Origin: a virus
DNA: 64,000 nt
Strand: one strand, 5' to 3'
Virus record (IMG/VR): IMGVR_UViG_3300044701_001468
The notes under the pieces: generated by a model
The model's database searches: none
Told to the model about the DNA's origin: nothing
The model's input: only the letters and a program-made list of their open reading frames with translations
In this document: positions 18,042-28,771 of the stretch, one piece after another
Position numbering within the stretch: position 1 is the first letter of the stretch
How the letters are laid out: every line of letters starts with the position of its first letter
Translations under genes and position numbers: made by a program

Positions 18042-18689
18042 CTAGTTTTGTATTCTGAATCCATATTTACCACTAGTAATATAATTTGGAATAAAATTCA
18101 TAGAAAGACTCATTCTATTATCTGCGGGATTAATATTATAACCATGACTCAAGTGAGATTCCCAAAGAATTAGTTTGCCAGATTCTGGAAGTACAACCGA
18201 ATCACTATTATATTTTGTTGGAATATTTTTCTCAAGTTGAATTACTGGTTGATTACCAGACTCAATTGATTTTGGATTTCTAAACAATAACGGAGAATGT
18301 ACATTCTCTTCAAAGTTTATATAATAAGTTCCAGAAATAAAAGAATTTGCATGATAATGTGGGTATTGAAACCCTCCACTTTCACAACAATTTATCCAAC
18401 TATCAGTCACTATTATATCATCTAATATCTTATATCCCAAAATATCAATCACATATTCTTTTGCACACGAGACACACCATTCCATAAAAGGTAAAAATTC
18501 CTCTCTGTATAAAATGGATTCTCCAATATCATTCCCATAATGTTTTAAATTATTGGAATGAATATTTTTTGTTTCATTAAGTTTAGTAGTAACATCAAAA
18601 GATATTCGTTTCACTTCTTCATGAAAATCACATTCAAAAAAAGCTATTGGGTTTGGAAGAATGTCAATTATATTAGTTAACATAATCAA
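18042..18689 (-). CDS. 2OG-Fe(II) oxygenase (TIGR02466-like)
   Basis: SWIN...HYHANSFISGTYY...WESHLSH...RMSLSMN. Confidence 0.85.
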   Translation of the reverse strand: MIMLTNIIDILPNPIAFFECDFHEEVKRISFDVTTKLNETKNIHSNNLKHYGNDIGESILYREEFLPFMEWCVSCAKEYVIDILGYKILDDIIVTDSWINCCESGGFQYPHYHANSFISGTYYINFEENVHSPLLFRNPKSIESGNQPVIQLEKNIPTKYNSDSVVLPESGKLILWESHLSHGYNINPADNRMSLSMNFIPNYITSGKYGFRIQN

Positions 18690-19461
18690 ATATATCGTTA
18701 AATTGTTTATAATAATTTATAGATTTGGTTGTCAAATAATCCTCTGGATTTTTATAATCCCGTTTTAATGTAGATCTTATGCTATGTAAATTTTTTATTT
18801 CCCAATATTTATCATTATCATTAGTATCACTTTTTATATGATTAACGTCATGTGTATAGAATGATTCTGAAAGATAATCATATATTTTAGTCATCGTTTC
18901 TTCAGGTTGGTCAATTAAATTATTATAAGAAATATACAAAATATTTTTTTTATCTATAGATGTTTTAAACATTTCATATGATTCTCCTACTACTCCTTCT
19001 TTCCATAAAAATTTAGATCTATTTTCATTCGTGACTGGTATTTTTCTTTTGAATAATTCTTGGTCAACAAAATTATTTTTATCTTTTTCCAACAAGTATA
19101 AAAAAGAAGTTATTATTTCTTCGACTGGTCTGTATGTACAAATAATTTTAGGAGAAGGATTTATAACTTCTTTGATTTGAGGAATATTTGATATCCATCC
19201 TCGCCATTTATCTATAATAATTGGGCGATCAATATGATTATAATAAGATTCTACAACCGATTTGAAAATATTTTTTAATTGAGCACCATCAATAGTTTTA
19301 TATCTTTGAGATATTTCTCCATAAACATAATCTACTCCAGATAAAAAATCCAACAATCCACTAGTAGATGTACAATGTATTTGGGGATTTTGATTTAGAA
19401 GTGACGACAATAAAGTAGTTCCTGTTCTCGGTAACCCAGATAAAAAATAAAGTTTACTCAT
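18673..19461 (-). CDS. Sulfotransferase-family protein
   Basis: GLPRTGTTLL PAPS-binding loop, IIDK, YRPVEEIITS. Confidence 0.85.
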   Translation of the reverse strand: MSKLYFLSGLPRTGTTLLSSLLNQNPQIHCTSTSGLLDFLSGVDYVYGEISQRYKTIDGAQLKNIFKSVVESYYNHIDRPIIIDKWRGWISNIPQIKEVINPSPKIICTYRPVEEIITSFLYLLEKDKNNFVDQELFKRKIPVTNENRSKFLWKEGVVGESYEMFKTSIDKKNILYISYNNLIDQPEETMTKIYDYLSESFYTHDVNHIKSDTNDNDKYWEIKNLHSIRSTLKRDYKNPEDYLTTKSINYYKQFNDIFDYVN

Positions 19462-20042
19462 CAATCCCACCACCAACAAAGGTTTGTAAGCGTGTTGAGA
19501 AACTGTTCGTGATAGACCGTGCGACTCGGATTAGGTTTACCATCTTTCATGTCTTGGAGATACTGAATTATACCACGAACCACTGGAGTGTCTTGGAAGT
19601 ATTCGTGCATTCGATAACAATCAAACTTCTCAATGTATTCTACGAAATCATGCATGGGATCCATGTTGCGACGATACCCATAGATGAATACATCTTCATC
19701 TTTGATACCTTCTTTGTTGATGATGTCAAGCTTATAAAACTTTTCACCGTCTTCATTTACTTCTTCTTTTTCTCTGTCAAACTTAAAGTGAAGACCATCG
19801 TAATACTTATCATGTAACTCTTCATCTGGTGCTACACGAACCCTCTCATTCTCTCTCATAATGTATTCCATGCGACCTTTGGCATCCTCGTTATTCAAAC
19901 GAAATACGATGTTGCCGACATAGTAATGTACAGGACCACCATAGAGTTGTGAAGATTCTTTTCTCCTGAATGACAGATGAGTAATCTCAAATCCAGGATC
20001 TTCATATTCAGTTTCAACTAGTCCTTGTGTCAACATAATCAA
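19461..20042 (-). CDS. Conserved phage hypothetical protein
   Basis: 193 aa ORF coupled to the sulfotransferase. Confidence 0.7.
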   Translation of the reverse strand: MIMLTQGLVETEYEDPGFEITHLSFRRKESSQLYGGPVHYYVGNIVFRLNNEDAKGRMEYIMRENERVRVAPDEELHDKYYDGLHFKFDREKEEVNEDGEKFYKLDIINKEGIKDEDVFIYGYRRNMDPMHDFVEYIEKFDCYRMHEYFQDTPVVRGIIQYLQDMKDGKPNPSRTVYHEQFLNTLTNLCWWWD

Positions 20043-21019: not shown

Positions 21020-21208
21020 TGATGGAGTAAGCGTAATATACCTCAAGGATATAACAGAGGCTTACCCTCTATCTTTGTGGGGATGGTCGGACTTCACCCA
21101 GAAGGCAAAATCCTTAAGACCCTGCCAAACCATCCCCATACGACGCTACGGAAGATACCCGTAGTAGAAGTTGGTCTCCTTCTAGGCTATCTGCCTAACG
21201 AGTACCAA
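21020..21208 (-). ncRNA. Candidate structured RNA(s) between tRNA-Ser and tRNA-Pro
   Basis: 10-bp closing stem TGGGGATGGT/ACCATCCCCA with internal hairpins, plus flanking hairpins; no ORF. Confidence 0.45.
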
Positions 21209-21293
21209 CGGAAGTGGTAGGATTCGAACCCACGATGGCTTTCACCATGCTTGTTTTCAAGACAAGTTCCTTCAACCACTCGGACACACTTCC
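21209..21293 (-). tRNA. tRNA-Ser(TGA)
   Basis: CTTGT-CTTGAAA-ACAAG, long variable arm. Confidence 0.95.
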
Positions 21294-21309
21294 ATTTGTT
21301 GACCTCCAT

Positions 21310-21338
21310 ATTATATAGGAGGTCGGGGGATTTGTCAA
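21310..21338 (-). promoter_or_regulatory. Consensus sigma70 promoter for the tRNA operon
   Basis: TTGACA-17 nt-TATAAT. Confidence 0.9.
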
Positions 21339-21341
21339 CCC

Positions 21342-22382
21342 CTAGAACACTAGAGTCAGTGCTCCGTATCCAACCAATGCAGCAATCAGCATACCAAGAA
21401 CTTTATAGTAAGTTTTGATAGGAGTGCCAAAGTATTGCTGACCAATCAGCAGACACTTGTGCATTGGAGAGATGATGTACCCAGCATACTCCACACAGAG
21501 GAACCATGTCAAGTATCCAGGACCGAATGCCTTAGCAAGAAGAGCAACGATACCAGCATACTTGCTAGAGGATCCCATAGCAAACGCAGCAAGGAAACCA
21601 ACCACAGAGATAATGCCAAGAGCAGCGGAACCTTGAGCTGCAGTCAGTTTCAAATACTCCATGACTGGTTCTTTCAGTTCTCCCATGATGGCAGCAAGAG
21701 CAAGCACCAGAGCAGCAAAACCAGCAAACTTCCACTTGATATAACGACCCCACTTCCAATCATTGCAGATGAATGAATAGTAAGCAGCAAGACCTGTGAA
21801 CCAAACAGAGAAGAGATATGGCATGTCTGGATCACCATAGCATACCAGGAACCACATCGTAGCAACAATAGGCCCCCAACCTTTCAGCAGACGATTCCAA
21901 CTGAAGGTGCGAGTTTCCTCCACAATCTCAACATCAGTCTCCTTGACATACTTGAAGATGAATACACCTGCGAATGCCAAAACGATTGCAAGAGGAACAA
22001 TGGTATAACTCATATAAGTTGTATATGACATACCGAGTGCTGCCATAGGAAGCACAACAGTCTTTTCTAGTGGTGACCACCAGTAATAGTGGTGAGTAGA
22101 AAGATAATCTACGATACCAAACTTAGAACGAGATTGTGCTTTGTCTGAAGCGATGGAATCCAGAAGGGGTGCCGACATAACGACACGCCCTTCAATGGGT
22201 AGAACACCACCAGCTAAAGCAGTAGCAGCAACTACAAGTCTATTTGACTTGAAGATTTTGCGAAGTGCTACGAATACTTCGTTAAGCACTCCGTATTGTT
22301 TTACGAGACCACCGACAATCATGATGCCGATGATGTAGGGGAGAAAAAGTTCTTTCTCCCAAATACCCATTAGTAGATCCAT
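21342..22382 (-). CDS. Polytopic membrane protein, DUF401 / IT-superfamily transporter-like
   Basis: About 9-10 hydrophobic segments; HHYYWWSPL and ISPMHKCL motifs. Confidence 0.7.
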   Translation of the reverse strand: MDLLMGIWEKELFLPYIIGIMIVGGLVKQYGVLNEVFVALRKIFKSNRLVVAATALAGGVLPIEGRVVMSAPLLDSIASDKAQSRSKFGIVDYLSTHHYYWWSPLEKTVVLPMAALGMSYTTYMSYTIVPLAIVLAFAGVFIFKYVKETDVEIVEETRTFSWNRLLKGWGPIVATMWFLVCYGDPDMPYLFSVWFTGLAAYYSFICNDWKWGRYIKWKFAGFAALVLALAAIMGELKEPVMEYLKLTAAQGSAALGIISVVGFLAAFAMGSSSKYAGIVALLAKAFGPGYLTWFLCVEYAGYIISPMHKCLLIGQQYFGTPIKTYYKVLGMLIAALVGYGALTLVF

Positions 22383-22388
22383 ATGTTA

Positions 22389-23891
22389 TCAGAAAGTGAA
22401 TTTAGTTTGGATTACACCACCATAGTTATCCGAAGCGTTCTTGAATCCTTGGTTGTTGGAAACATAGAAGATCGAAGGAGTGATGCTGATATTGTCGCTA
22501 ACCTTGTAACGATAGAAGGTTTCCCACATGATAGCTTTCTGATTATCAGCAAGAGAAGCAGCATTGCCAGGGGCGCCAATAGCGAAACCAGCAGCGTTAC
22601 CCTTGGCGAATACATCGCTCCACTGAAGACCAGCAAACCATGTCTGCGAGTTGGTAGCACCAGTAGGAGTGGTACGACCTAGAGCATTCTTACTCACATC
22701 GGTCCAACCATAAGCACCAGAGATCGAAGGTACGATACCAGACTTCTTAGGTTGCCAGTAAGCATTGATAGCATAGCTGTTAGAGGTTTGACCAGCAGCA
22801 AGAGCACCAGAACCACCATTGATAGCATTGAAGGTACGAACACGAGTGCCTTCAGTGCCATAACGATAACCGAATGCAACGCCATACTGAGGAGCACGAT
22901 AACCGATTTGTGCCAGAGTATTCAGAGCACCAGTCTCATCGAACTGACCCTTGGAACTATCACTACCATTCTGAGCAACATAGTTCACACCAGCAACGAA
23001 ACCACCCTTACCTTTTTTGGTAGGTTGTGCCCATTGAGCACCGAAACCAGAACCAGTTGCTTTGTTATAAACGCCAGGAGCACCAGCAACTTGGAAGAAG
23101 TCAAGAATGTCAGACTTATAAGCAGAAGGAACCCATGCCATCTCTGTGTTACGAACCAGAGCACCAGCAGTCAGGGTCATACCTTTGGTAAGACCAGGGA
23201 AGCTGTAGTACAAACGATCAAGTTGTACGGCGTTTGCATAAGTTTCTGCTTTGTCCAGTTTGAACAGAGACGAAGAAGAACCGAATGGTTGACTGGAGAA
23301 GTTACCAGTACGCAGACGAGTACGAAGCAGATCTTTACCAGTAAACGAAGTGTCAAAGTTCAGACGAAGATCGTAGTTAAATGCAGTATTACCAACATTA
23401 GTATTGTTAGCAAGACGAGCACCTTCTACACCACCAAGAATGAAGTTAACTTCGCCCTTGAGTTTAGTTGTGGTAGAGAACTGAGTTGCTTGGAGTTGAC
23501 CAACTTGAGTTTCCAGTTTGGCAACACGACCACGAATGACAAGAAGTTCATCCGCAAACTCTTTTGAAAGACGTTGGAGTTCGTCAGTCACTTCAGTTAC
23601 ACGATCAAGGCAAGCATTCAGAAGTGCGGCTGCCTCATAACGAGTCATTGCCTTACCACCACCATAAGTGCCGTTAGGATAACCAGCTACGCAACCATAA
23701 CGATCTACGAGATTGGTAAGTGCCTGGTATGCCCAATCCGAAGGTCGGACATCAGACAATTGAGTGACGCTTGTAACCTGCTCAGAAGTTGCATACTGAT
23801 TAACAGCAGCAATATTCAGATCAGCAGCCACAGCAGGAGCAGTGGCGCTGATAGCAGCAGTGGCAAGCATCAAATGCTTAAATGTTTTCAT
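22389..23891 (-). CDS. Cyanobacterial SLH-domain outer-membrane porin (Som / OprB / iron-uptake porin type)
   Basis: Signal peptide; SDVRPSDWAYQAL..RYGCVAGYP..TRYEAAALLNACL SLH; coiled coil; FSTTTKL barrel start; C-terminal Phe. Confidence 0.93.
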   Translation of the reverse strand: MKTFKHLMLATAAISATAPAVAADLNIAAVNQYATSEQVTSVTQLSDVRPSDWAYQALTNLVDRYGCVAGYPNGTYGGGKAMTRYEAAALLNACLDRVTEVTDELQRLSKEFADELLVIRGRVAKLETQVGQLQATQFSTTTKLKGEVNFILGGVEGARLANNTNVGNTAFNYDLRLNFDTSFTGKDLLRTRLRTGNFSSQPFGSSSSLFKLDKAETYANAVQLDRLYYSFPGLTKGMTLTAGALVRNTEMAWVPSAYKSDILDFFQVAGAPGVYNKATGSGFGAQWAQPTKKGKGGFVAGVNYVAQNGSDSSKGQFDETGALNTLAQIGYRAPQYGVAFGYRYGTEGTRVRTFNAINGGSGALAAGQTSNSYAINAYWQPKKSGIVPSISGAYGWTDVSKNALGRTTPTGATNSQTWFAGLQWSDVFAKGNAAGFAIGAPGNAASLADNQKAIMWETFYRYKVSDNISITPSIFYVSNNQGFKNASDNYGGVIQTKFTF

Positions 23892-23938
23892 AAGGTTTTC
23901 TTAAGATTTAACAAAATGTCATGCCCACTTAAGGGCAA

Positions 23939-24026
23939 CGGAAGATGATGGATTCGAACCATCGGAAGGGTTGACCCCTTCGGCGGTTTAGCAAACCGCT
24001 GCTTTAGACCTCTCAGCCAATCTTCC
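23939..24026 (-). tRNA. tRNA-Ser(GCT)
   Basis: GCGGT-TTGCTAA-ACCGC, long variable arm. Confidence 0.95.
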
Positions 24027-24283
24027 TAGCGAATTTCAAACTCCATTTTTCTTGGAATGCGCTTAGTATACTCCATCGGTGTGGGGTTGTCAAGCTTTTT
24101 TTCTTTAGGTTTGCTGACACCATCAATTCCTACGATTAATGATAGGTCATTACCAGTAATTACTGGCATTCCATTCCTATCCAAACGCAAGAATGTTTGA
24201 TTATCACATCCACATGCTTTACTTTTATTTGCTTGGTATACTTCTAACTCAGTTCCACAAGCGTTACATCTGATCTTTGCCAT
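24026..24283 (-). CDS. Zn-ribbon-like hypothetical protein
   Basis: CNAC...CGC motifs. Confidence 0.7.
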   Translation of the reverse strand: MAKIRCNACGTELEVYQANKSKACGCDNQTFLRLDRNGMPVITGNDLSLIVGIDGVSKPKEKKLDNPTPMEYTKRIPRKMEFEIR

Positions 24284-24494
24284 TTTTTTCTTTTAACCAC
24301 TCTGCCATTTCTTTTTGCATTTTCTTTGCTTCTTTATCAAGTTGTCTCTTCATATTTTTTGCCATTCTCCACCGAATAAAGTTAATATGAAGAAGTTTTA
24401 TTCTGAGGTTGATATATTCTGGCACATTTGGATCTTGCCAGATAATATATATCGTCGCACAGAGCACTATTAAAGAGATATAGTATGTATTCAT
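24264..24494 (-). CDS. Small membrane-anchored hypothetical protein
   Basis: MNTYYISLIVLCATIYIIWQD; start reassigned. Confidence 0.6.
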   Translation of the reverse strand: MNTYYISLIVLCATIYIIWQDPNVPEYINLRIKLLHINFIRWRMAKNMKRQLDKEAKKMQKEMAEWLKEKNGKDQM

Positions 24495-24503
24495 AATCTT
24501 ATA

Positions 24504-24575
24504 TGGGAAATGTCGGATTCGAACCAACGACCGTCTGCGTGTAAAGCAGCTGCGCTACCACTGCGCCAATCTCCC
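24504..24575 (-). tRNA. tRNA-Val(TAC)
   Basis: CTGC-TTTACAC-GCAG. Confidence 0.93.
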
Positions 24576-24578
24576 GAG

Positions 24579-24652
24579 CGTCTTGGGAGGGACTCGAACC
24601 CCCGACCAACTCATTAGAAGTGAGTGGCTCTATCCATCTGAGCTACCAAGAC
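24579..24652 (-). tRNA. tRNA-Arg(TCT)
   Basis: ACTCA-CTTCTAA-TGAGT. Confidence 0.95.
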
Positions 24653-24710: not shown

Positions 24711-24739
24711 ATTATATCACTCTTTAGGGCAGGTGTCAA
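24711..24739 (-). promoter_or_regulatory. Consensus sigma70 promoter (tRNA-Arg...porin operon)
   Basis: TTGACA-17 nt-TATAAT. Confidence 0.9.
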
Positions 24740-25124
24740 GCCATGGAGCACACAACCTCATGGGTGGGGCGAGTGCCTTGCACTCATCACTATAACATAA
24801 TGTTTCGTCGTTCTTCTCTTCTATATAGCGAGGTTTTGATACCTCTGCTTTTGATAATCCTGTTTGTTTCCAGTAATCATCTATTGCTCTGTCAACATCT
24901 CTTGTTATTCTTCTGTTTAGTTTCTCAGGATCTTTAAGTATAAACTCATTAAGTATAGTTTGTGGGAAATATTTTCTTTGAATCTCGTCCAGTAAATCCC
25001 AAAGTCCATTTTCAGATACTCCTGTACATTGTGAGAGTGCTGCAATAATAGAAGATAATACGATACCGATTATCGCGTATTGTTTTATATCTGGTTTCTT
25101 TTTGCCAAAATTAAAGTTAATCAT
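24717..25124 (-). CDS. Conserved cyanophage membrane-anchored protein
   Basis: TM helix, C-terminal CY..EC..L.PPMRLC motif. Confidence 0.7.
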   Translation of the reverse strand: MINFNFGKKKPDIKQYAIIGIVLSSIIAALSQCTGVSENGLWDLLDEIQRKYFPQTILNEFILKDPEKLNRRITRDVDRAIDDYWKQTGLSKAEVSKPRYIEEKNDETLCYSDECKALAPPMRLCAPWLDTCPKE

Positions 25125-25633
25125 TCTCCCCAAATCTGTATGGTAATTCTAAAAGAAGGGGAAGAAGAAGATACTGGAGTAACCAAATGTAATTGTCTTT
25201 CGTCGTTAACTACTAATGTTTTTCCCTGGGGTATCAATCCCAAACAATTACCATGTTCCAGATCTTGCATAGTTTCATACCACAAAAAAATGCCTCCCCA
25301 GTTAACATGCCAAGAATTATTTAAATATAAAGTTGCGCCAAATTTATATGTATGATCGTCATGTAATGATATTCCAGAATTATACTGCCAAACATAAAAT
25401 TGAAGTATTAAATTCTGATGTTCTGGTAGGTATTGTTTTATCTGATGTTCTATTTGTTTTGATAAATCAGCACTAACATCACATGATATACAACTACCTA
25501 CAATATTACTTCTAACAACTTCTGGCCACCCAATACTACTAGATGTCCACACTCTTTTTTGAGAATTTTGTTTTATCTCTTGTATACATTCTTGCTGTAA
25601 ATTATCACTTATTGCATTATTAAAAATTTTCAT
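25121..25633 (-). CDS. 2OG-Fe(II) oxygenase
   Basis: LHDD, ATLYLNNSWHVNWGG, HLVTPV..RITIQ. Confidence 0.85.
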   Translation of the reverse strand: MKIFNNAISDNLQQECIQEIKQNSQKRVWTSSSIGWPEVVRSNIVGSCISCDVSADLSKQIEHQIKQYLPEHQNLILQFYVWQYNSGISLHDDHTYKFGATLYLNNSWHVNWGGIFLWYETMQDLEHGNCLGLIPQGKTLVVNDERQLHLVTPVSSSSPSFRITIQIWGE

Positions 25634-26440: not shown

Positions 26441-28771
26441 TCAAAATCTGAACTTAACTTTGGCGGCAACGGAATTGCTTGTCAAACCATCAGTAACAGA
26501 ATGAGTTCCCTCTACATATAGTGCTTGTTTGTAATCAATAGAAGCAGTGGCACTATATGAGTTGTCTGTAGAATAGGCACCTTCAACACTCACGCCAATT
26601 ACATCTTTCTTCTTACCACCAAAGCGAGTTTCTAGTTTCAAACCAGCTTCACCAACATGTGTGGTCTGGTTGAACGCTTCGACACTTCTTGCTGATTCTG
26701 GAGAACCAGTTTCAGTATAAGCATTTCTTCGAATGTTAGAAATAGTATAACCTAAGAATGGTTTGATCCAACCAGAGTTATTCAGATATAGTCTGTTATG
26801 AACCCACCATTGTGTTCCTTCTACATTTGCCCAGTTACCAAACATATATTCAACGGTTCTAGCAACATCATATTTGTCTCTAGAAGCACCAGCATTTGTA
26901 ACAAGTGCTACATCTCTGCCATGGAAGCTATTGAATATACCAACATGCTGTCTCTTGAGGTGTGAGATGCTATCCACACCTATCATTTCAGTATAGAGAT
27001 CATTGTATTGTGCTCCAGCAGTCCATCCTTTGGTGATGTCATATTCAAATCCACCACCAAATACTGTAGATTTTGCTTGATAACCATCAGCATTATATGA
27101 ATGCATGAAGCGATTGTTTTCGAATACTCTAAATCTCTTCTTATGATTGGTGATTGGTTCATGATCTAACAGACCATTGATAGCACTGCTGATATTATCA
27201 AGAACTTCTAGTTGATCTATACGACCAAAGTAATCCTTGTAAGTATGGACGACATCTACACTTTCAGAAGACACATAAGTTACAACTGGTGTTCCTTCAG
27301 TTGTAGTTGTAGTTCCATCAGCATATACAATCGTAGTTACTGGAGTTGCGGTTACAGTGGTAACTAATGGAGTTGTGATTTCAGTTGCTACATGAACATT
27401 TACTTTTTGTTTTCCACCATTCTCAGATGAAGCAAACGCATAATCATTTTTATATGTTTGTGGTAACGTAGTTGATTGTGCTGTGCTATATCCTATAGAA
27501 GGAGTAGTGGTTGAAGTAGAATTAAGAACTGTTGCAGTTACTTGTGATGTAGAAGATCCGTTTGATGTTGTTGTGGTTACTACTGGCGTTCCGTTTGAGG
27601 TGGTTGTAGAACCATCAGAATATGTGGTCGTTGTAACTGGAGTTGTAGTTGTAGTTGTTGTAGTAACTGGAGTTGTAGTTTCTATAGTATCAGTATAGTT
27701 CTGAACTACTCCATATCCATTATTGTCAAGATTGCTTACATTATAAGTAACCTGAGCTGTTACTACAACATTTGAAGTTGACGAAGATGTTGATACCTGA
27801 TCTGTCGTAGATGTTCCAGTTACTGTTGGGGCAGGTGGTGGTGTTGGAGTTGGAGGTGTTGGTGGTGTTGGATTTATTGTAGGAGCATTTGGATTGTTGG
27901 GAGCAACAGCACCAAATGGTTGTCCATTTGCTAATGTGGTTCCTGGTTGACTATCAACTAAAAGAACTGGTGATAGTGCAGTATCTCCAAGATTAAATAC
28001 TGCAAATCCTAATAGATAAGCACCAGTTACATCAACTTGATATGTTGAATTCTGCCATCCAGTTGAACCATAAGTTCCTGTAGAGTAATCTCCCGTACCT
28101 GGGTTAGTGAATCCAAGTAACGCATAGTTCTGAACATAGTTGTTGACATTTACAACTGGAGTAGAACCAGTTCCCTGATAAACAAGAGATGTAATAGAAC
28201 CATCGTTGAATGGAACATAATCAGTTCCAATGTAGTTCCATGACATCGTATAAACTTTTCCAGCATCAAGATTTACGCTTTGAGTTAACCATGCGGCATT
28301 AGTTGGATTGGGATTTCCTAGACCTGATGCCTGTTGGTCTTGCTGAAGTTTTGTTTTGATTGCTTGATTTTCTGCAGATGTAAGACCTAATGCAGAAGTT
28401 GCTGCATCGAATGTTGTTGAACCTGTTGGTTGTAATGCAGCACCAGCAGTTCCATATGGAGAGAATGTCCAAGTTGTTGGTGTTGTTGCTGGGGCATGGT
28501 ATGGATTTGGTGATCCATCTGGGAGTGTGGGACTACCCACCGCGCCATGAGAAGGCGCACTAAATGTTACCGATCCGTTGATTGCAGTAACACCAGTTCC
28601 ATTACCAGTGATTGTTCCGTTGGTTAGATTTCCTGGTTGAGATCCCGTATTCCATCCAGATAGAGATCCCCCCTCGAAATCAGTTCCAGTTATTGTATCA
28701 GACAATGCTGCTGTTGGCACTCCAAAAAGAAGCACAGACGCTGCAGCCAGCGCCTTCTGTGTAGTAGACAT
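26441..28771 (-). CDS. Autotransporter-like outer-membrane protein
   Basis: Signal peptide; beta-rich passenger; Pro-rich and Thr-rich linker; C-terminal barrel ending VKFRF. Confidence 0.75.
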   Translation of the reverse strand: MSTTQKALAAASVLLFGVPTAALSDTITGTDFEGGSLSGWNTGSQPGNLTNGTITGNGTGVTAINGSVTFSAPSHGAVGSPTLPDGSPNPYHAPATTPTTWTFSPYGTAGAALQPTGSTTFDAATSALGLTSAENQAIKTKLQQDQQASGLGNPNPTNAAWLTQSVNLDAGKVYTMSWNYIGTDYVPFNDGSITSLVYQGTGSTPVVNVNNYVQNYALLGFTNPGTGDYSTGTYGSTGWQNSTYQVDVTGAYLLGFAVFNLGDTALSPVLLVDSQPGTTLANGQPFGAVAPNNPNAPTINPTPPTPPTPTPPPAPTVTGTSTTDQVSTSSSTSNVVVTAQVTYNVSNLDNNGYGVVQNYTDTIETTTPVTTTTTTTTPVTTTTYSDGSTTTSNGTPVVTTTTSNGSSTSQVTATVLNSTSTTTPSIGYSTAQSTTLPQTYKNDYAFASSENGGKQKVNVHVATEITTPLVTTVTATPVTTIVYADGTTTTTEGTPVVTYVSSESVDVVHTYKDYFGRIDQLEVLDNISSAINGLLDHEPITNHKKRFRVFENNRFMHSYNADGYQAKSTVFGGGFEYDITKGWTAGAQYNDLYTEMIGVDSISHLKRQHVGIFNSFHGRDVALVTNAGASRDKYDVARTVEYMFGNWANVEGTQWWVHNRLYLNNSGWIKPFLGYTISNIRRNAYTETGSPESARSVEAFNQTTHVGEAGLKLETRFGGKKKDVIGVSVEGAYSTDNSYSATASIDYKQALYVEGTHSVTDGLTSNSVAAKVKFRF

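What the first reader, a model, noticed from the sequence alone, without database searches (positions are those of the whole stretch)
21342..23891. Phage-encoded porin plus inner-membrane transporter-like gene inside a tRNA operon
A complete cyanobacterial SLH porin (signal peptide, C-terminal Phe) is followed after 6 nt by a 9-10 TM DUF401/IT-like protein. Both lie downstream of a perfect sigma70 promoter (24711-24739) and tRNA genes. Inference: a two-membrane solute import route installed early in infection, or remodelling of the surface receptor for superinfection exclusion.
Basis: partly seen in the sequence, partly recalled or inferred. Interest (0 to 1): 0.75.

Follow-up and report, generated by a model that had tools for sequence, protein, structure and literature searches.

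The report
Cyanophage porin plus elevator-type transporter gene
A freshwater cyanobacterial virus carries an intact outer-membrane porin gene, coupled 6 bases downstream to a gene for an inner-membrane protein with a secondary-transporter fold; relatives of both genes sit in phosphate-uptake settings in other phages, so the pair is probably a nutrient-import cassette, but its substrate is unproven.

Summary
On the minus strand, between tRNA-Ser(GCT) and tRNA-Ser(TGA), lie a complete 500-aa SLH/coiled-coil/16-strand OprB-type porin and, 6 nt later, a 346-aa DUF401-type protein. Its AlphaFold model (pLDDT 91) aligns over 343 of 346 residues with the VcINDY elevator transporter (Z 24.9).

The window is an uncultured freshwater T4-like cyanomyovirus. 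The porin belongs to one phage clade (330 IMG/VR stretches; S-SRM01 is the only isolate). Its sister group is the pstS-linked porins of Cyanobium, at 53-55% identity.

In sister phages the porin is usually followed by pstS or a ferritin/Dps gene. In the pstS type it is preceded by 11-bp-periodic Pho-box-like repeats.

The porin-DUF401 pairing is a minority arrangement, but it recurs. Upstream of nearly identical DUF401 genes, at one conserved junction, sit divergent porins, a small Phage_OMP barrel (the family of P-SSM2 gp247, which sits beside pstS) or an SLH mini-barrel. DUF401 records lacked pstS, and pstS records lacked DUF401.

Best reading (about 0.45): an early-expressed two-membrane uptake cassette, with phosphate or another small ion as the likeliest substrate. 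The substrate, co-transcription and any benefit to the phage are inferred. This window has no Pho box.

This scan has noted porin-pstS and Phage_OMP-DUF401 pairs before on other DNA.

The parts
24711..24739 (-). Distal sigma70-type promoter (TTGACA-17 nt-TATAAT with a TG extension), inside the 3' end of a 138-aa ORF. It heads the run tRNA-Arg, tRNA-Val, two small ORFs, tRNA-Ser, porin, DUF401.
   Evidence: 12 of 12 matches; sequence.
24504..24652 (-). tRNA-Arg(TCT) at 24578-24652 and tRNA-Val(TAC) at 24504-24575.
24026..24527 (-). Two small ORFs: 87 aa (24527..24264) and an 85-aa zinc-ribbon-like protein (24283..24026, phrog_8074). They are syntenic in relatives.
24065..24093 (-). Proximal sigma70-type promoter (TTGACA-17-TATACT), about 40 nt upstream of tRNA-Ser(GCT). 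It is the likely start of a tRNA-porin-DUF401 co-transcript.
   Evidence: 11 of 12 matches. The hexamers are invariant in the window, L003, L094 and L100.
23939..24026 (-). tRNA-Ser(GCT), the left flank of the cassette.
23892..23938 (-). 47-nt porin leader. A short hairpin (GCCCTTAAGTGGGC) directly follows the tRNA and marks the left border of the exchangeable outer-membrane-gene cassette. There is no Pho box, no own promoter and no Shine-Dalgarno sequence.
   Evidence: Relatives are identical up to the hairpin and then diverge.
22389..23891 (-). Porin gene, 500 aa: signal peptide, SLH domain, coiled-coil stalk, 16-strand OprB-type barrel, C-terminal Phe.
22383..22388 (-). 6-nt spacer (TAACAT) between the porin stop and the DUF401 ATG. 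It is part of the junction TTC TGA TAA NNT ATG, which is conserved behind three kinds of outer-membrane genes.
21342..22382 (-). DUF401-type membrane protein, 346 aa (phrog_14035), with the elevator-type IT/DASS transporter fold.
21310..21338 (-). Perfect sigma70-type promoter starting 3 nt after the DUF401 stop. It drives tRNA-Ser(TGA) and downstream genes. No terminator follows DUF401.
   Evidence: 12 of 12 matches.
21208..21294 (-). tRNA-Ser(TGA), the right flank of the cassette.

Best explanation
The window comes from an uncultured freshwater T4-like cyanomyovirus.

Proposed mechanism. Host-type (early) promoters in a tRNA cluster transcribe tRNA-Ser(GCT), a porin gene and a translationally coupled DUF401 gene as one unit. 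tRNA processing would release the mRNA. The porin is exported, tethered to the cell wall through its SLH domain and coiled-coil stalk, and adds ion channels to the host outer membrane. The DUF401 protein inserts into the inner membrane and acts as an elevator-type secondary transporter. Together they raise the flux of a small inorganic solute across both membranes while the phage replicates. Phosphate or another oxyanion is the likeliest substrate; a metal ion is the alternative.

Shown here:
- the identity, completeness and fold of both proteins;
- purifying selection on both genes;
- a single phage clade of porins, sister to the host's pstS-linked porins;
- porin-pstS cassettes behind Pho-box-like repeats in sister phages;
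- exchange of different outer-membrane barrel genes at one junction in front of DUF401.

Inferred: the substrate, co-transcription, localisation in the two membranes, and benefit to the phage.
For: Proteins.
- Porin: NF033921 at 294 bits with full model coverage and a 16-strand barrel. The best fold matches are OprB, OmpM1, OprO and OprP.
- DUF401: AlphaFold pLDDT 91 and pTM 0.88. VcINDY gives Z 24.9 with 343 of 346 residues aligned. NaS1 (sulfate), Pho90 (phosphate), ArsB and the TRAP transporter SiaQM give Z about 22-23.5.
- The nearly invariant residues of DUF401 fall on four elements: the two loops between helix pairs 47-59/67-75 and 252-269/272-286, and the two helix breaks at 102-106 and 304-308. 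By analogy with VcINDY these are the hairpin tips and broken helices that form the substrate site.

Link to phosphate.
- All 40 phage porins in the tree form one clade (support 99). Its sister is L171-L174 of Cyanobium and freshwater Synechococcus.
- In those hosts the porin sits beside pstS and a CHAD-domain gene.
- 25 of 92 phage porin loci have pstS directly downstream.
- The pattern TTAA-N7-TTAA-N7-TTAA occurs 27 times in 705 kb of phage loci. All 27 lie 92-148 nt upstream of a porin ATG, and most are in porin-pstS loci.
- A two-repeat box overlapping the -35 hexamer (CTTAACCT-NNN-CTTAnTTn) is shared with the P-SSM2 g247 promoter. It also precedes the L090 porin-DUF401 cassette.
- g247 and pstS are reported as the only P-SSM2 genes induced under phosphate limitation (preprint 10.1101/2021.07.20.453049). 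gp247 is a Pfam Phage_OMP protein.

Link between the outer-membrane gene and DUF401.
- In 12 of 21 freshwater DUF401 loci, the ORF ending 6 nt upstream is a porin (66-84% identical to the window's), a Phage_OMP barrel or an SLH mini-barrel. All share the same junction.
- The outer-membrane gene type switches between closely related DUF401 genes.
- All four combinations of (porin or Phage_OMP) with (PstS or DUF401) exist.
- No pstS was found in 4 IMG/VR DUF401 records (one of them complete) or in 3 DUF401-bearing cyanophage isolates. No DUF401 was found in 2 pstS records. Positive controls worked.

Expression. There are promoters upstream, and no terminator or promoter between the genes.
Against: - The pairing is a minority state for both genes. 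None of the 80 best porin loci has DUF401. None of 55 marine DUF401 loci has an immediately adjacent outer-membrane gene; their neighbours are mazG or 2OG-Fe(II) oxygenase genes.
- Relatives of DUF401 at about 40% identity lie near neck and tail genes of other T4-like phages, and relatives at 33% occur in Ralstonia jumbo phages. The protein may therefore have a more general role.
- This window has no Pho box and no pstS.
- Pho-box prediction in phages is reported to be unreliable (PMC10976474). The 27 hits are homologous copies, not independent events.
- The conserved His, Cys and Glu residues (H97, H98, H308, C310, E106) would suit a metal as well as an anion. DUF401 lacks the SNT motifs of DASS transporters.
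- The mutual-exclusion sample is small.
- The region is a plastic tRNA island in which neighbours change often.
- Porin sampling was limited to the 80 loci most similar to the window, out of 330.
Confidence: 0.45

Rival explanations
1. The two genes are unrelated auxiliary genes that are neighbours only through locus history. The porin cassette inserted between tRNA-Ser and an older DUF401-grx-Phd block in a recombination-prone tRNA island. The porin serves outer-membrane permeability, whereas DUF401 has a separate, general phage role such as ion or pH homeostasis or control of membrane potential.
For: - DUF401 occurs without any outer-membrane gene in marine cyanophages, next to mazG, 2OG oxygenase, Phd or talC genes. 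It also occurs in other T4-like phages near gp13-15 and in Ralstonia phages.
- The porin occurs without DUF401 in at least 80 loci.
- The cassette borders are sharp: a hairpin after the tRNA, and the stop codon.
- DUF401 is followed by grx and Phd here, as in marine phages.
Against: - Three different outer-membrane barrel types were recruited to exactly the same 6-nt junction before DUF401.
- The pair persists across porin lineages that are only 66-94% identical.
- DUF401 and pstS were never found together.
Confidence: 0.3
2. Surface remodelling or superinfection exclusion. The phage porin replaces or masks a host porin that serves as a phage receptor, or it changes the cell surface together with the phage's autotransporter-like protein. 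Later phages then cannot adsorb.
For: - The phage encodes at least two outer-membrane proteins: the porin and a 776-aa protein with an autotransporter barrel.
- The gaps and most variable columns of the phage-porin alignment fall in segments between the predicted barrel strands.
- The outer-membrane genes are exchanged like cassettes.
- Expression is from early-type promoters.
Against: - No evidence was found that these porins are cyanophage receptors.
- The porin is under purifying selection overall, with dN/dS 0.12-0.30.
- The family's links are with pstS, Pho-box-like repeats and a host phosphate locus.
- This reading gives the transporter-fold partner no role.
Confidence: 0.08
3. Envelope maintenance. 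Like OmpM of diderm Firmicutes, SLH porins tether the outer membrane to the cell wall. The phage copy replaces host porin that turns over after host shut-off and keeps the envelope intact until lysis.
For: - The N-terminal 100 residues match the SLH and stalk region of OmpM1 (8bym; E 4.5e-13).
- The barrel matches OmpM1 by fold.
- The model has the same architecture of SLH domain, long helix and barrel.
Against: - This reading does not explain the pstS or DUF401 partners or the Pho-box-like repeats.
- S-PM2 and S-CREM1 carry only the SLH-stalk part, so the tether and the channel can be separated.
Confidence: 0.07
4. Metal route, for iron or another divalent cation. The porin belongs to the subfamily that NCBI names 'iron uptake porin', and DUF401 imports the metal using its conserved His, Cys and Glu residues. 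The ferritin/Dps gene common in this region stores the metal.
For: - The NF033921 family name is 'iron uptake porin'.
- 17 porin loci have a ferritin/Dps gene directly downstream, and many others have one after pstS. L090 has porin-DUF401-ferritin.
- The near-invariant residues include H97, H98, E106, H308 and C310.
Against: - The family name is a subfamily label, not a test.
- This window has no ferritin gene near the pair.
- All fold neighbours with known substrates carry anions.
- No iron-regulator (Fur) site was looked for.
Confidence: 0.1

Closest known systems
Phage_OMP-pstS(-phoA) phosphate cassettes of marine cyanomyoviruses (P-SSM2 g246/g247-pstS; S-SM2 217/218-pstS-phoA)
   Same: - An outer-membrane beta-barrel gene sits directly upstream of an uptake component in a T4-like cyanophage.
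- A two-repeat Pho-box-like promoter of the same build precedes the L090 porin-DUF401 cassette.
- The same Phage_OMP family precedes DUF401 in L094 and L101.
   Different: Here the barrel is a full 500-aa SLH porin, not a roughly 120-aa barrel. The partner is a membrane transporter-fold protein, not the periplasmic binding protein PstS. This window has no Pho box.
Som / SLH-OprB porins of picocyanobacteria (NCBIfam NF033921 por_somb), especially the pstS-linked porins of freshwater Cyanobium (L171-L174)
   Same: Same domain order and a full-length family match. These host porins are the sister clade of the phage porins.
   Different: - Only 53-55% identical.
- The phage copies are about 30-100 aa shorter.
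- GC3 is 0.35 in the phage gene, against host DNA of about 58-67% GC.
- The gene is phage-resident and forms its own clade.
Synechococcus phage S-SRM01 'porin' (QPX48248.1)
   Same: Same phage porin family at 76% identity, in a syntenic region (lysozyme-like gene, tRNAs, porin, Dps).
   Different: It has no DUF401 and no pstS. The genome paper does not mention the porin.
OmpM1 of Veillonella parvula (PDB 8BYM/8BYS, 'outer membrane attachment porin')
   Same: SLH domain, coiled-coil stalk and 16-strand barrel. It matches by sequence over the SLH and stalk part and by fold over the barrel.
   Different: A distant lineage, about 14% identical in the barrel. It is cellular, not viral.
DASS / IT-superfamily elevator transporters (VcINDY, NaCT, NaS1, Pho90, ArsB, TRAP SiaQM)
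   Same: The whole protein superposes on the transport core: Z 21.8-24.9 with 333-344 residues aligned for the best chain of each of these. Language-model look-alikes are GntP, DctM, CitMHS and DcuC families.
   Different: - About 10-13% identity and no sequence-level match in the PDB.
- It lacks the first roughly 80 residues of VcINDY.
- The conserved loop and helix-break motifs are GxLPIxGR, THHYYxWSPxEK, GSSxKYAG and SPxHKC instead of SNT.
Pfam DUF401 (PF04165) / TIGR00529 membrane proteins; PHROG 14035
   Same: It passes the Pfam threshold (50.7 bits against 24) and matches phrog_14035 end to end (E 2e-127).
   Different: - It is far below the TIGR00529 cut-off (56 bits against 378).
- It is about 50 residues shorter at the N-terminus than the 395-406-aa cellular forms, to which it is 24-28% identical.
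- The nearest relatives are all in phages.
- No member has a known function.

Membership tests
NCBIfam NF033921 por_somb (cyanobacterial SLH-OprB porin) | Whole-protein score above the curated cut-off, with full model coverage | tested here: met
   294 bits against a cut-off of 100; model positions 1-485 of 485.
NCBIfam NF033921 por_somb (cyanobacterial SLH-OprB porin) | N-terminal SLH domain followed by an OprB-type beta barrel | tested here: met
   Pfam SLH at residues 46-88 and OprB at 104-500. The model has a helix at 84-137 and 16 strands. The top fold match is P. putida OprB.
NCBIfam NF033921 por_somb (cyanobacterial SLH-OprB porin) | Export and assembly signals: signal peptide and C-terminal aromatic residue | tested here: met
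   Read directly from the sequence: a hydrophobic N-terminus ending AVA/AD, and a C-terminal ...KFTF. No signal-peptide predictor was available.
NCBIfam NF033921 por_somb (cyanobacterial SLH-OprB porin) | Channel activity or iron uptake, as the family name implies | not testable with these tools
   Needs bilayer or uptake assays.
Pfam DUF401 (PF04165) | Score above the Pfam gathering threshold | tested here: met
   50.7 bits against 24, in two stretches.
TIGR00529 (AF0261 family, hypothetical equivalog) | Score above the curated equivalog cut-off | tested here: not met
   56.5 bits against 378.4. The protein is a distant, shorter, phage-specific branch.
IT superfamily / DASS-type elevator transporter fold | Two-repeat core with two helical hairpins and two broken helices | tested here: met
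   The model has pLDDT 91. VIA Z is 24.9 to VcINDY over 343 of 346 residues, and Foldseek gives E 5e-6 and TM 0.71. That the conserved motifs lie on hairpin tips and helix breaks is my mapping from the secondary structure; it was not measured on coordinates.
IT superfamily / DASS-type elevator transporter fold | SNT substrate and sodium motifs of DASS proteins | tested here: not met
   The conserved motifs are GxLPIxGR and GSSxKYAG instead. The protein shares the fold but is not a DASS family member.
Pho regulon (PhoB-controlled phage genes) | Pho box (8-bp PyTTAAPyPy(T/A) repeats at 11-bp period) at the promoter | tested here: not met
   There is no triple repeat anywhere in the window and none in the 47-nt leader or at either promoter. 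It is present upstream of the porin in 27 related loci and, as a two-repeat form, in L090.
Pho regulon (PhoB-controlled phage genes) | PhoB binding and induction under phosphate limitation | not testable with these tools
   Needs gel-shift assays or infection transcriptomes. PMC10976474 warns that sequence prediction alone is unreliable.
Co-conserved two-gene module (porin + DUF401) | The pair is kept together across relatives | tested here: inconclusive
   The pair is kept in L003-L006 and in 7 IMG/VR loci with divergent porins. It is absent from the 80 best porin loci and from all marine DUF401 loci.

The most novel reading that the evidence does not exclude
The phage-specific short DUF401 proteins (phrog_14035) are a so far unrecognised class of virus-encoded inner-membrane importers for phosphate or a related oxyanion. 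They take the place of PstS. Together with exchangeable outer-membrane barrels (SLH porin, Phage_OMP, SLH mini-barrel) they form a self-contained two-membrane uptake route that needs no ATP and does not depend on the host PstCAB transporter.
Probability: 0.2. Interest if true: 0.8.

Novelty: new variant of a known kind. Interest (0 to 1): 0.6.

Why it matters
Cyanophage nutrient genes such as pstS and phoA are central to how viruses are thought to reshape phosphorus flow in plankton. All of those known so far plug into host transporters.

This work bears on that picture in three ways.
- Hundreds of freshwater cyanophages carry a full host-type outer-membrane porin. The papers I could search do not discuss it.
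- A widespread phage membrane protein of unknown function has a secondary-transporter fold.
- That protein sits in the genomic slot that pstS occupies elsewhere.

If the transporter moves phosphate, or iron, phages would be installing whole uptake routes rather than single parts. That would also give DUF401 its first functional lead.

The exchange of three kinds of outer-membrane genes at one junction is a clean natural example of cassette swapping in phage genomes.

Tried and rejected
- Own genome: none is held for this window.
- Homodimer prediction for the DUF401 protein: after four unanswered tries, the job returned 'no answer' with score 0.00. It counts neither for nor against dimerisation.
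- PDB by sequence with the DUF401 profile: only chance-level hits, E 0.18 and worse.
- Literature:
  - The searches 'cyanophage + porin', 'DUF401', 'S-SRM01', 'S-CREM1' and 'DSL-LC02/03' found no paper that discusses a full-length phage SLH porin or a phage DUF401.
  - The S-SRM01, S-CREM1 and Dishui Lake genome papers do not contain the word porin.
  - The 'DUF401' hits were unrelated, for example DUF4015.
- Triple Pho-box pattern: no hits in the window and none in 425 kb of host loci. The host comparison therefore could not calibrate the motif.
- Idea that the small ORFs before DUF401 in L094 and L101 are porin remnants: rejected. They match the whole Phage_OMP model, E 1e-26 to 1e-28.
- Idea of a recent capture of the porin from the host: rejected. 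The best host match is 55% identical, the phage copies form one clade, and GC3 is phage-like.
- The basal position of the DUF401-linked porins in the porin tree is not interpreted. Only the 80 porin loci most similar to the window were sampled, and S-SRM01 was left out of the tree because my script kept only plus-strand matches.
Full report
WHAT IS THERE

The window has about 39% GC and 14 tRNA genes. Its neighbours include nrdC-type glutaredoxin, Phd, 2OG-Fe(II) oxygenase, a phage lysozyme and nrdB. The nearest DNA matches are the freshwater Synechococcus phages DSL-LC02, DSL-LC03 and S-SRM01. It is therefore a fragment of an uncultured freshwater T4-like cyanomyovirus. No whole genome is held for it.

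The minus strand reads in this order:
- a perfect sigma70-type promoter (24739-24711);
- tRNA-Arg and tRNA-Val;
- two small ORFs;
- a second near-perfect promoter (24093-24065);
- tRNA-Ser(GCT);
- a 47-nt leader;
- the porin gene (23891-22389);
- 6 nt;
- the DUF401 gene (22382-21342);
- 3 nt later, another perfect promoter (21338-21310) in front of tRNA-Ser(TGA).

No promoter-like or terminator-like site separates the two genes, and neither gene has a Shine-Dalgarno sequence.

THE PORIN

It matches Pfam SLH and OprB. It covers the whole NCBIfam por_somb model at 294 bits against a cut-off of 100.

The AlphaFold model, built on 28 sequences, gives a long helix at 84-137 and a confident 16-strand barrel. 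The best structural matches are P. putida OprB, the 'outer membrane attachment porin' OmpM1 of Veillonella, and the phosphate and pyrophosphate porins OprP and OprO. The SLH and stalk part also matches OmpM1 by sequence.

The gene is not a recent capture.
- The best bacterial matches, from Cyanobium and freshwater Synechococcus, are only 53-55% identical.
- Third-position GC is 0.35, against host DNA of about 58-67% GC.
- dN/dS against relatives is 0.12-0.30.

The family is large in metagenomes and almost absent from cultured phages.
- Protein hits at 78-94% identity fill the first 120 places of the protein search.
- IMG/VR holds 330 matching stretches.
- Among 50,697 deposited phage records only S-SRM01 has a full-length copy. 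S-PM2 and S-CREM1 have just the SLH-stalk part.
- PHROGs has no family for it.

In a FastTree of 83 sequences, all 40 phage porins form one clade (support 99). That clade is sister, with support 100, to four host porins, L171-L174. Those host genes lie in phosphate loci: L172 reads CorA, PstS-like, CHAD, porin, PstS, and L173 reads porin, PstS, porin.

WHAT THE PORIN KEEPS COMPANY WITH

I classified the gene just downstream of the porin in 92 phage loci.
- PstS: 25 loci. The match is to TIGR00975 above its cut-off.
- A ferritin/Dps gene: 17 loci.
- Glutaredoxin: 4 loci.
- DUF401: 9 loci. These are the window, its 94% relatives L003-L006, and L090, L100, L103 and L104.
- The rest have other small genes or are cut by the contig end.

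None of the 80 IMG/VR loci found with the porin as query has DUF401.

Upstream of the porin, many loci carry 8-bp repeats at an 11-bp period, for example CTTAATAT-TCT-TTTAAGAA-TTG-GTTAAGTC, followed 3 nt later by CTAAATA. The bare pattern TTAA-N7-TTAA-N7-TTAA occurs 27 times in 705 kb of these loci. All 27 lie 92-148 nt before a porin start, and most are in porin-pstS loci.

A second element, CTTAACCT-NNN-CTTAnTTG-ACA, overlaps the -35 hexamer of a sigma70-type promoter in L008, L025 and L013. The same build precedes P-SSM2 g247 (CTTAACCT-TCT-CTTAGTTT-ACA).

The cyanobacterial Pho-box consensus PyTTAAPyPy(T/A) is quoted in PMC10976474. That paper also warns that predicted phage Pho boxes often fail experimental tests. 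In addition, the 27 copies are homologous to one another. I therefore call these elements Pho-box-like.

The window itself has none of them. Its porin follows tRNA-Ser directly.

THE DUF401 PROTEIN

It passes Pfam DUF401 (50.7 bits against 24) but is far below the TIGR00529 equivalog cut-off. It matches phrog_14035, a family of unknown function, end to end.

An exhaustive HMMER search found 494 representative relatives.
- Forms of about 330-350 aa dominate.
- Cellular forms of 395-406 aa are 24-28% identical and align only from about their residue 60.
- Relatives at about 40% identity lie in other T4-like phages beside gp13, gp14, gp15 and terminase genes.
- Relatives at 33% identity occur in the Ralstonia jumbo phages RP12 and RP31.

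This is therefore a phage-specific short branch of the DUF401 family.

An AlphaFold model built on 77 sequences has pLDDT 91 and pTM 0.88. Foldseek puts VcINDY first, at E 5e-6 and TM 0.71. VIA-align gives Z 24.9 with 343 of 346 residues aligned to VcINDY residues 84-459. NaCT, NaS1 (sulfate), Pho90 (phosphate), ArsB and the TRAP transporter SiaQM follow at Z about 22-24. Language-model look-alikes are the GntP, DctM, CitMHS and DcuC families. There is no sequence-level relative in the PDB.

The near-invariant residues are G59, P62, G65, R66; H97, H98, Y100, W102, S103, P104, E106; G270, S271, S272; and Y302, S305, P306, H308, C310. They fall on the two loops between helix pairs 47-59/67-75 and 252-269/272-286, and on the helix breaks at 102-106 and 304-308. 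From what is established for VcINDY, these four elements form the substrate and ion site. That mapping is my inference; I could not read the model coordinates.

The site is rich in Arg, His and Ser, which fits an oxyanion. It also has His, Cys and Glu, which fits a metal. The DASS SNT motifs are absent. dN/dS is 0.05-0.17.

IS THE PAIR A UNIT?

Against a unit: marine DUF401 genes (about 51-55% identical; 55 loci) are coupled to mazG or 2OG-Fe(II) oxygenase genes, or lie beside glutaredoxin, Phd and talC.

For a unit: consider the 21 freshwater DUF401 loci with readable upstream DNA, where DUF401 is 88-96% identical to the window's.
- In 7 the upstream ORF is an SLH porin, only 66-84% identical to the window's.
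- In 4 it is a 120-125-aa Pfam Phage_OMP barrel (E 1e-26 to 1e-28).
- In 1 it is a 318-aa SLH protein ending in GFKF.
- In 7 DUF401 follows uvsX, gp41 and mazG.
- In 2 it follows the tRNA directly.

All 12 outer-membrane genes end in Phe and share the junction TTC TGA TAA NNT ATG. On the left, the sequences are identical through the tRNA and a short hairpin and then diverge. The whole outer-membrane gene with its leader is therefore exchanged as a cassette.

On a DUF401 DNA tree, a Phage_OMP-linked gene (L101) nests among porin-linked ones with support 100.

Phage_OMP is the family of P-SSM2 gp246 and gp247 and of S-SM2 217 and 218, which sit directly before pstS. A preprint (10.1101/2021.07.20.453049) reports g247 and pstS as the only P-SSM2 genes induced under phosphate limitation and models gp247 as porin-like.

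All four combinations of (porin or Phage_OMP) with (PstS or DUF401) therefore exist. One porin-DUF401 cassette, L090, has the g247-type promoter. In S-PM2d the uvsX-gp41-mazG cluster, which is the other home of DUF401, is induced under phosphate limitation (PMC10976474); this link is weak.

Finally, pstS and DUF401 were never found in the same record.
- pstS was absent from four IMG/VR records with DUF401, one of them complete with terminal repeats, and from S-CAM4, S-H25 and MbCM1.
- DUF401 was absent from two pstS-bearing records, one of them 96% complete.
- Positive controls matched.

The sample is small. If about 45% of cyanomyoviruses carry pstS, which is a figure from my memory, finding zero in four independent genomes has a probability of about 0.09.

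READING

The best-supported explanation is a nutrient-uptake cassette: an outer-membrane ion channel from a lineage tied to phosphate acquisition, plus an inner-membrane elevator-type carrier. In this phage it is expressed from host-type early promoters as part of a tRNA-mRNA transcript, not under Pho control. I put this at about 0.45, with phosphate or another oxyanion ahead of a metal as the substrate.

The main rival, at about 0.3, is that the two genes are independent and are neighbours only because the porin cassette landed in front of an older DUF401-grx-Phd block. Superinfection exclusion (0.08), envelope tethering (0.07) and a metal route (0.1) remain possible. The phage also encodes an autotransporter-like outer-membrane protein, so surface remodelling cannot be dismissed.

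KNOWN OR NEW

Phage pstS and phoA under host PhoBR control, and the small barrel gp247, are known. 'Porin' is annotated in S-SRM01, but none of the genome papers I could read mentions it.

Earlier notes of this scan had already reported porin-pstS cassettes with Pho-box arrays, a Phage_OMP-DUF401 pair between two tRNA-Ser genes, and marine DUF401 genes in the talC operon, all on other DNA. I found the same things independently before reading those notes.

What is added here:
- the single phage clade of porins and its host pstS-locus sister;
- the confident elevator-transporter fold of the phage DUF401;
- the exchangeable outer-membrane-gene slot with its conserved junction;
- the apparent exclusion between DUF401 and pstS.

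I class this as a new variant of a known kind of phage nutrient module.

LIMITS

- There are no expression data.
- The dimer prediction gave no answer.
- Sampling was limited to the 80 loci most similar to the window for each gene.
- The porin tree was made with FastTree only.
- Pho-box calls rest on pattern alone.
- The substrate is unknown.

Noticed in passing
window 26441-28771 (-): A 776-aa protein with a signal-peptide-like N-terminus, Thr/Pro-rich repeats and a Pfam Autotransporter beta-domain (E 8e-11). It is a second outer-membrane protein encoded by this phage. DSL-LC03 has an annotated homologue.
   Followed up: partly
L010-L089 (e.g. L008:4960-4985, L082): A conserved motif TTGTCGTTTAGTAC lies about 25-35 nt before the porin ATG in most phage porin loci, often after a hairpin. 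It is absent from the window, L003 and L100. It may be a leader or processing element.
   Followed up: no
L023 and L040 (IMGVR_UViG_3300044631_000905): One 87.6-kb viral contig carries two porin copies about 15 kb apart, 86% and 84% identical to the window's porin.
   Followed up: no
L239 (Ralstonia phage RP12, 137337-138377) and RP31: Jumbo phages of Ralstonia solanacearum encode a 346-aa DUF401-type protein 33% identical to the window's. It overlaps an upstream 346-aa ORF of unknown function. The family therefore reaches beyond cyanophages.
   Followed up: no
L170; P0145: Phage genes sit in bins labelled as bacteria. An 80%-identical porin fragment is in a 'Gammaproteobacteria' MAG contig of 1.1 kb, and an 84%-identical DUF401 is in a 'Nanopelagicaceae' MAG (20-kb contig). 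Several Cyanobium-type porin contigs are filed under Bifidobacterium, Sphingobacterium or Mesorhizobium MAG names.
   Followed up: no
L173, L175, L176 and other host loci: Freshwater Cyanobium and Synechococcus often carry two SLH porin genes in tandem. In L173 a pstS gene lies between them.
   Followed up: partly
L125:2428-2736: One marine DUF401 locus has a weak Phage_OMP-like hit (28-34% identity, E 1e-5 to 1e-6) about 370 nt upstream of DUF401, with a 70-aa ORF between them.
   Followed up: no
window 18673-19479 (-) and 25121-25633 (-): A sulfotransferase (Pfam Sulfotransfer_3, E 9e-19) and a 2OG-Fe(II) oxygenase flank the tRNA island. Both are syntenic in L003.
   Followed up: no
S-PM2 (123185-123439 of AJ630128.1) and S-CREM1 (159343-159642): These isolates carry only the SLH plus coiled-coil N-terminal part of the porin family, annotated 'putative S-layer protein' and 'iron uptake porin'.
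   Followed up: no
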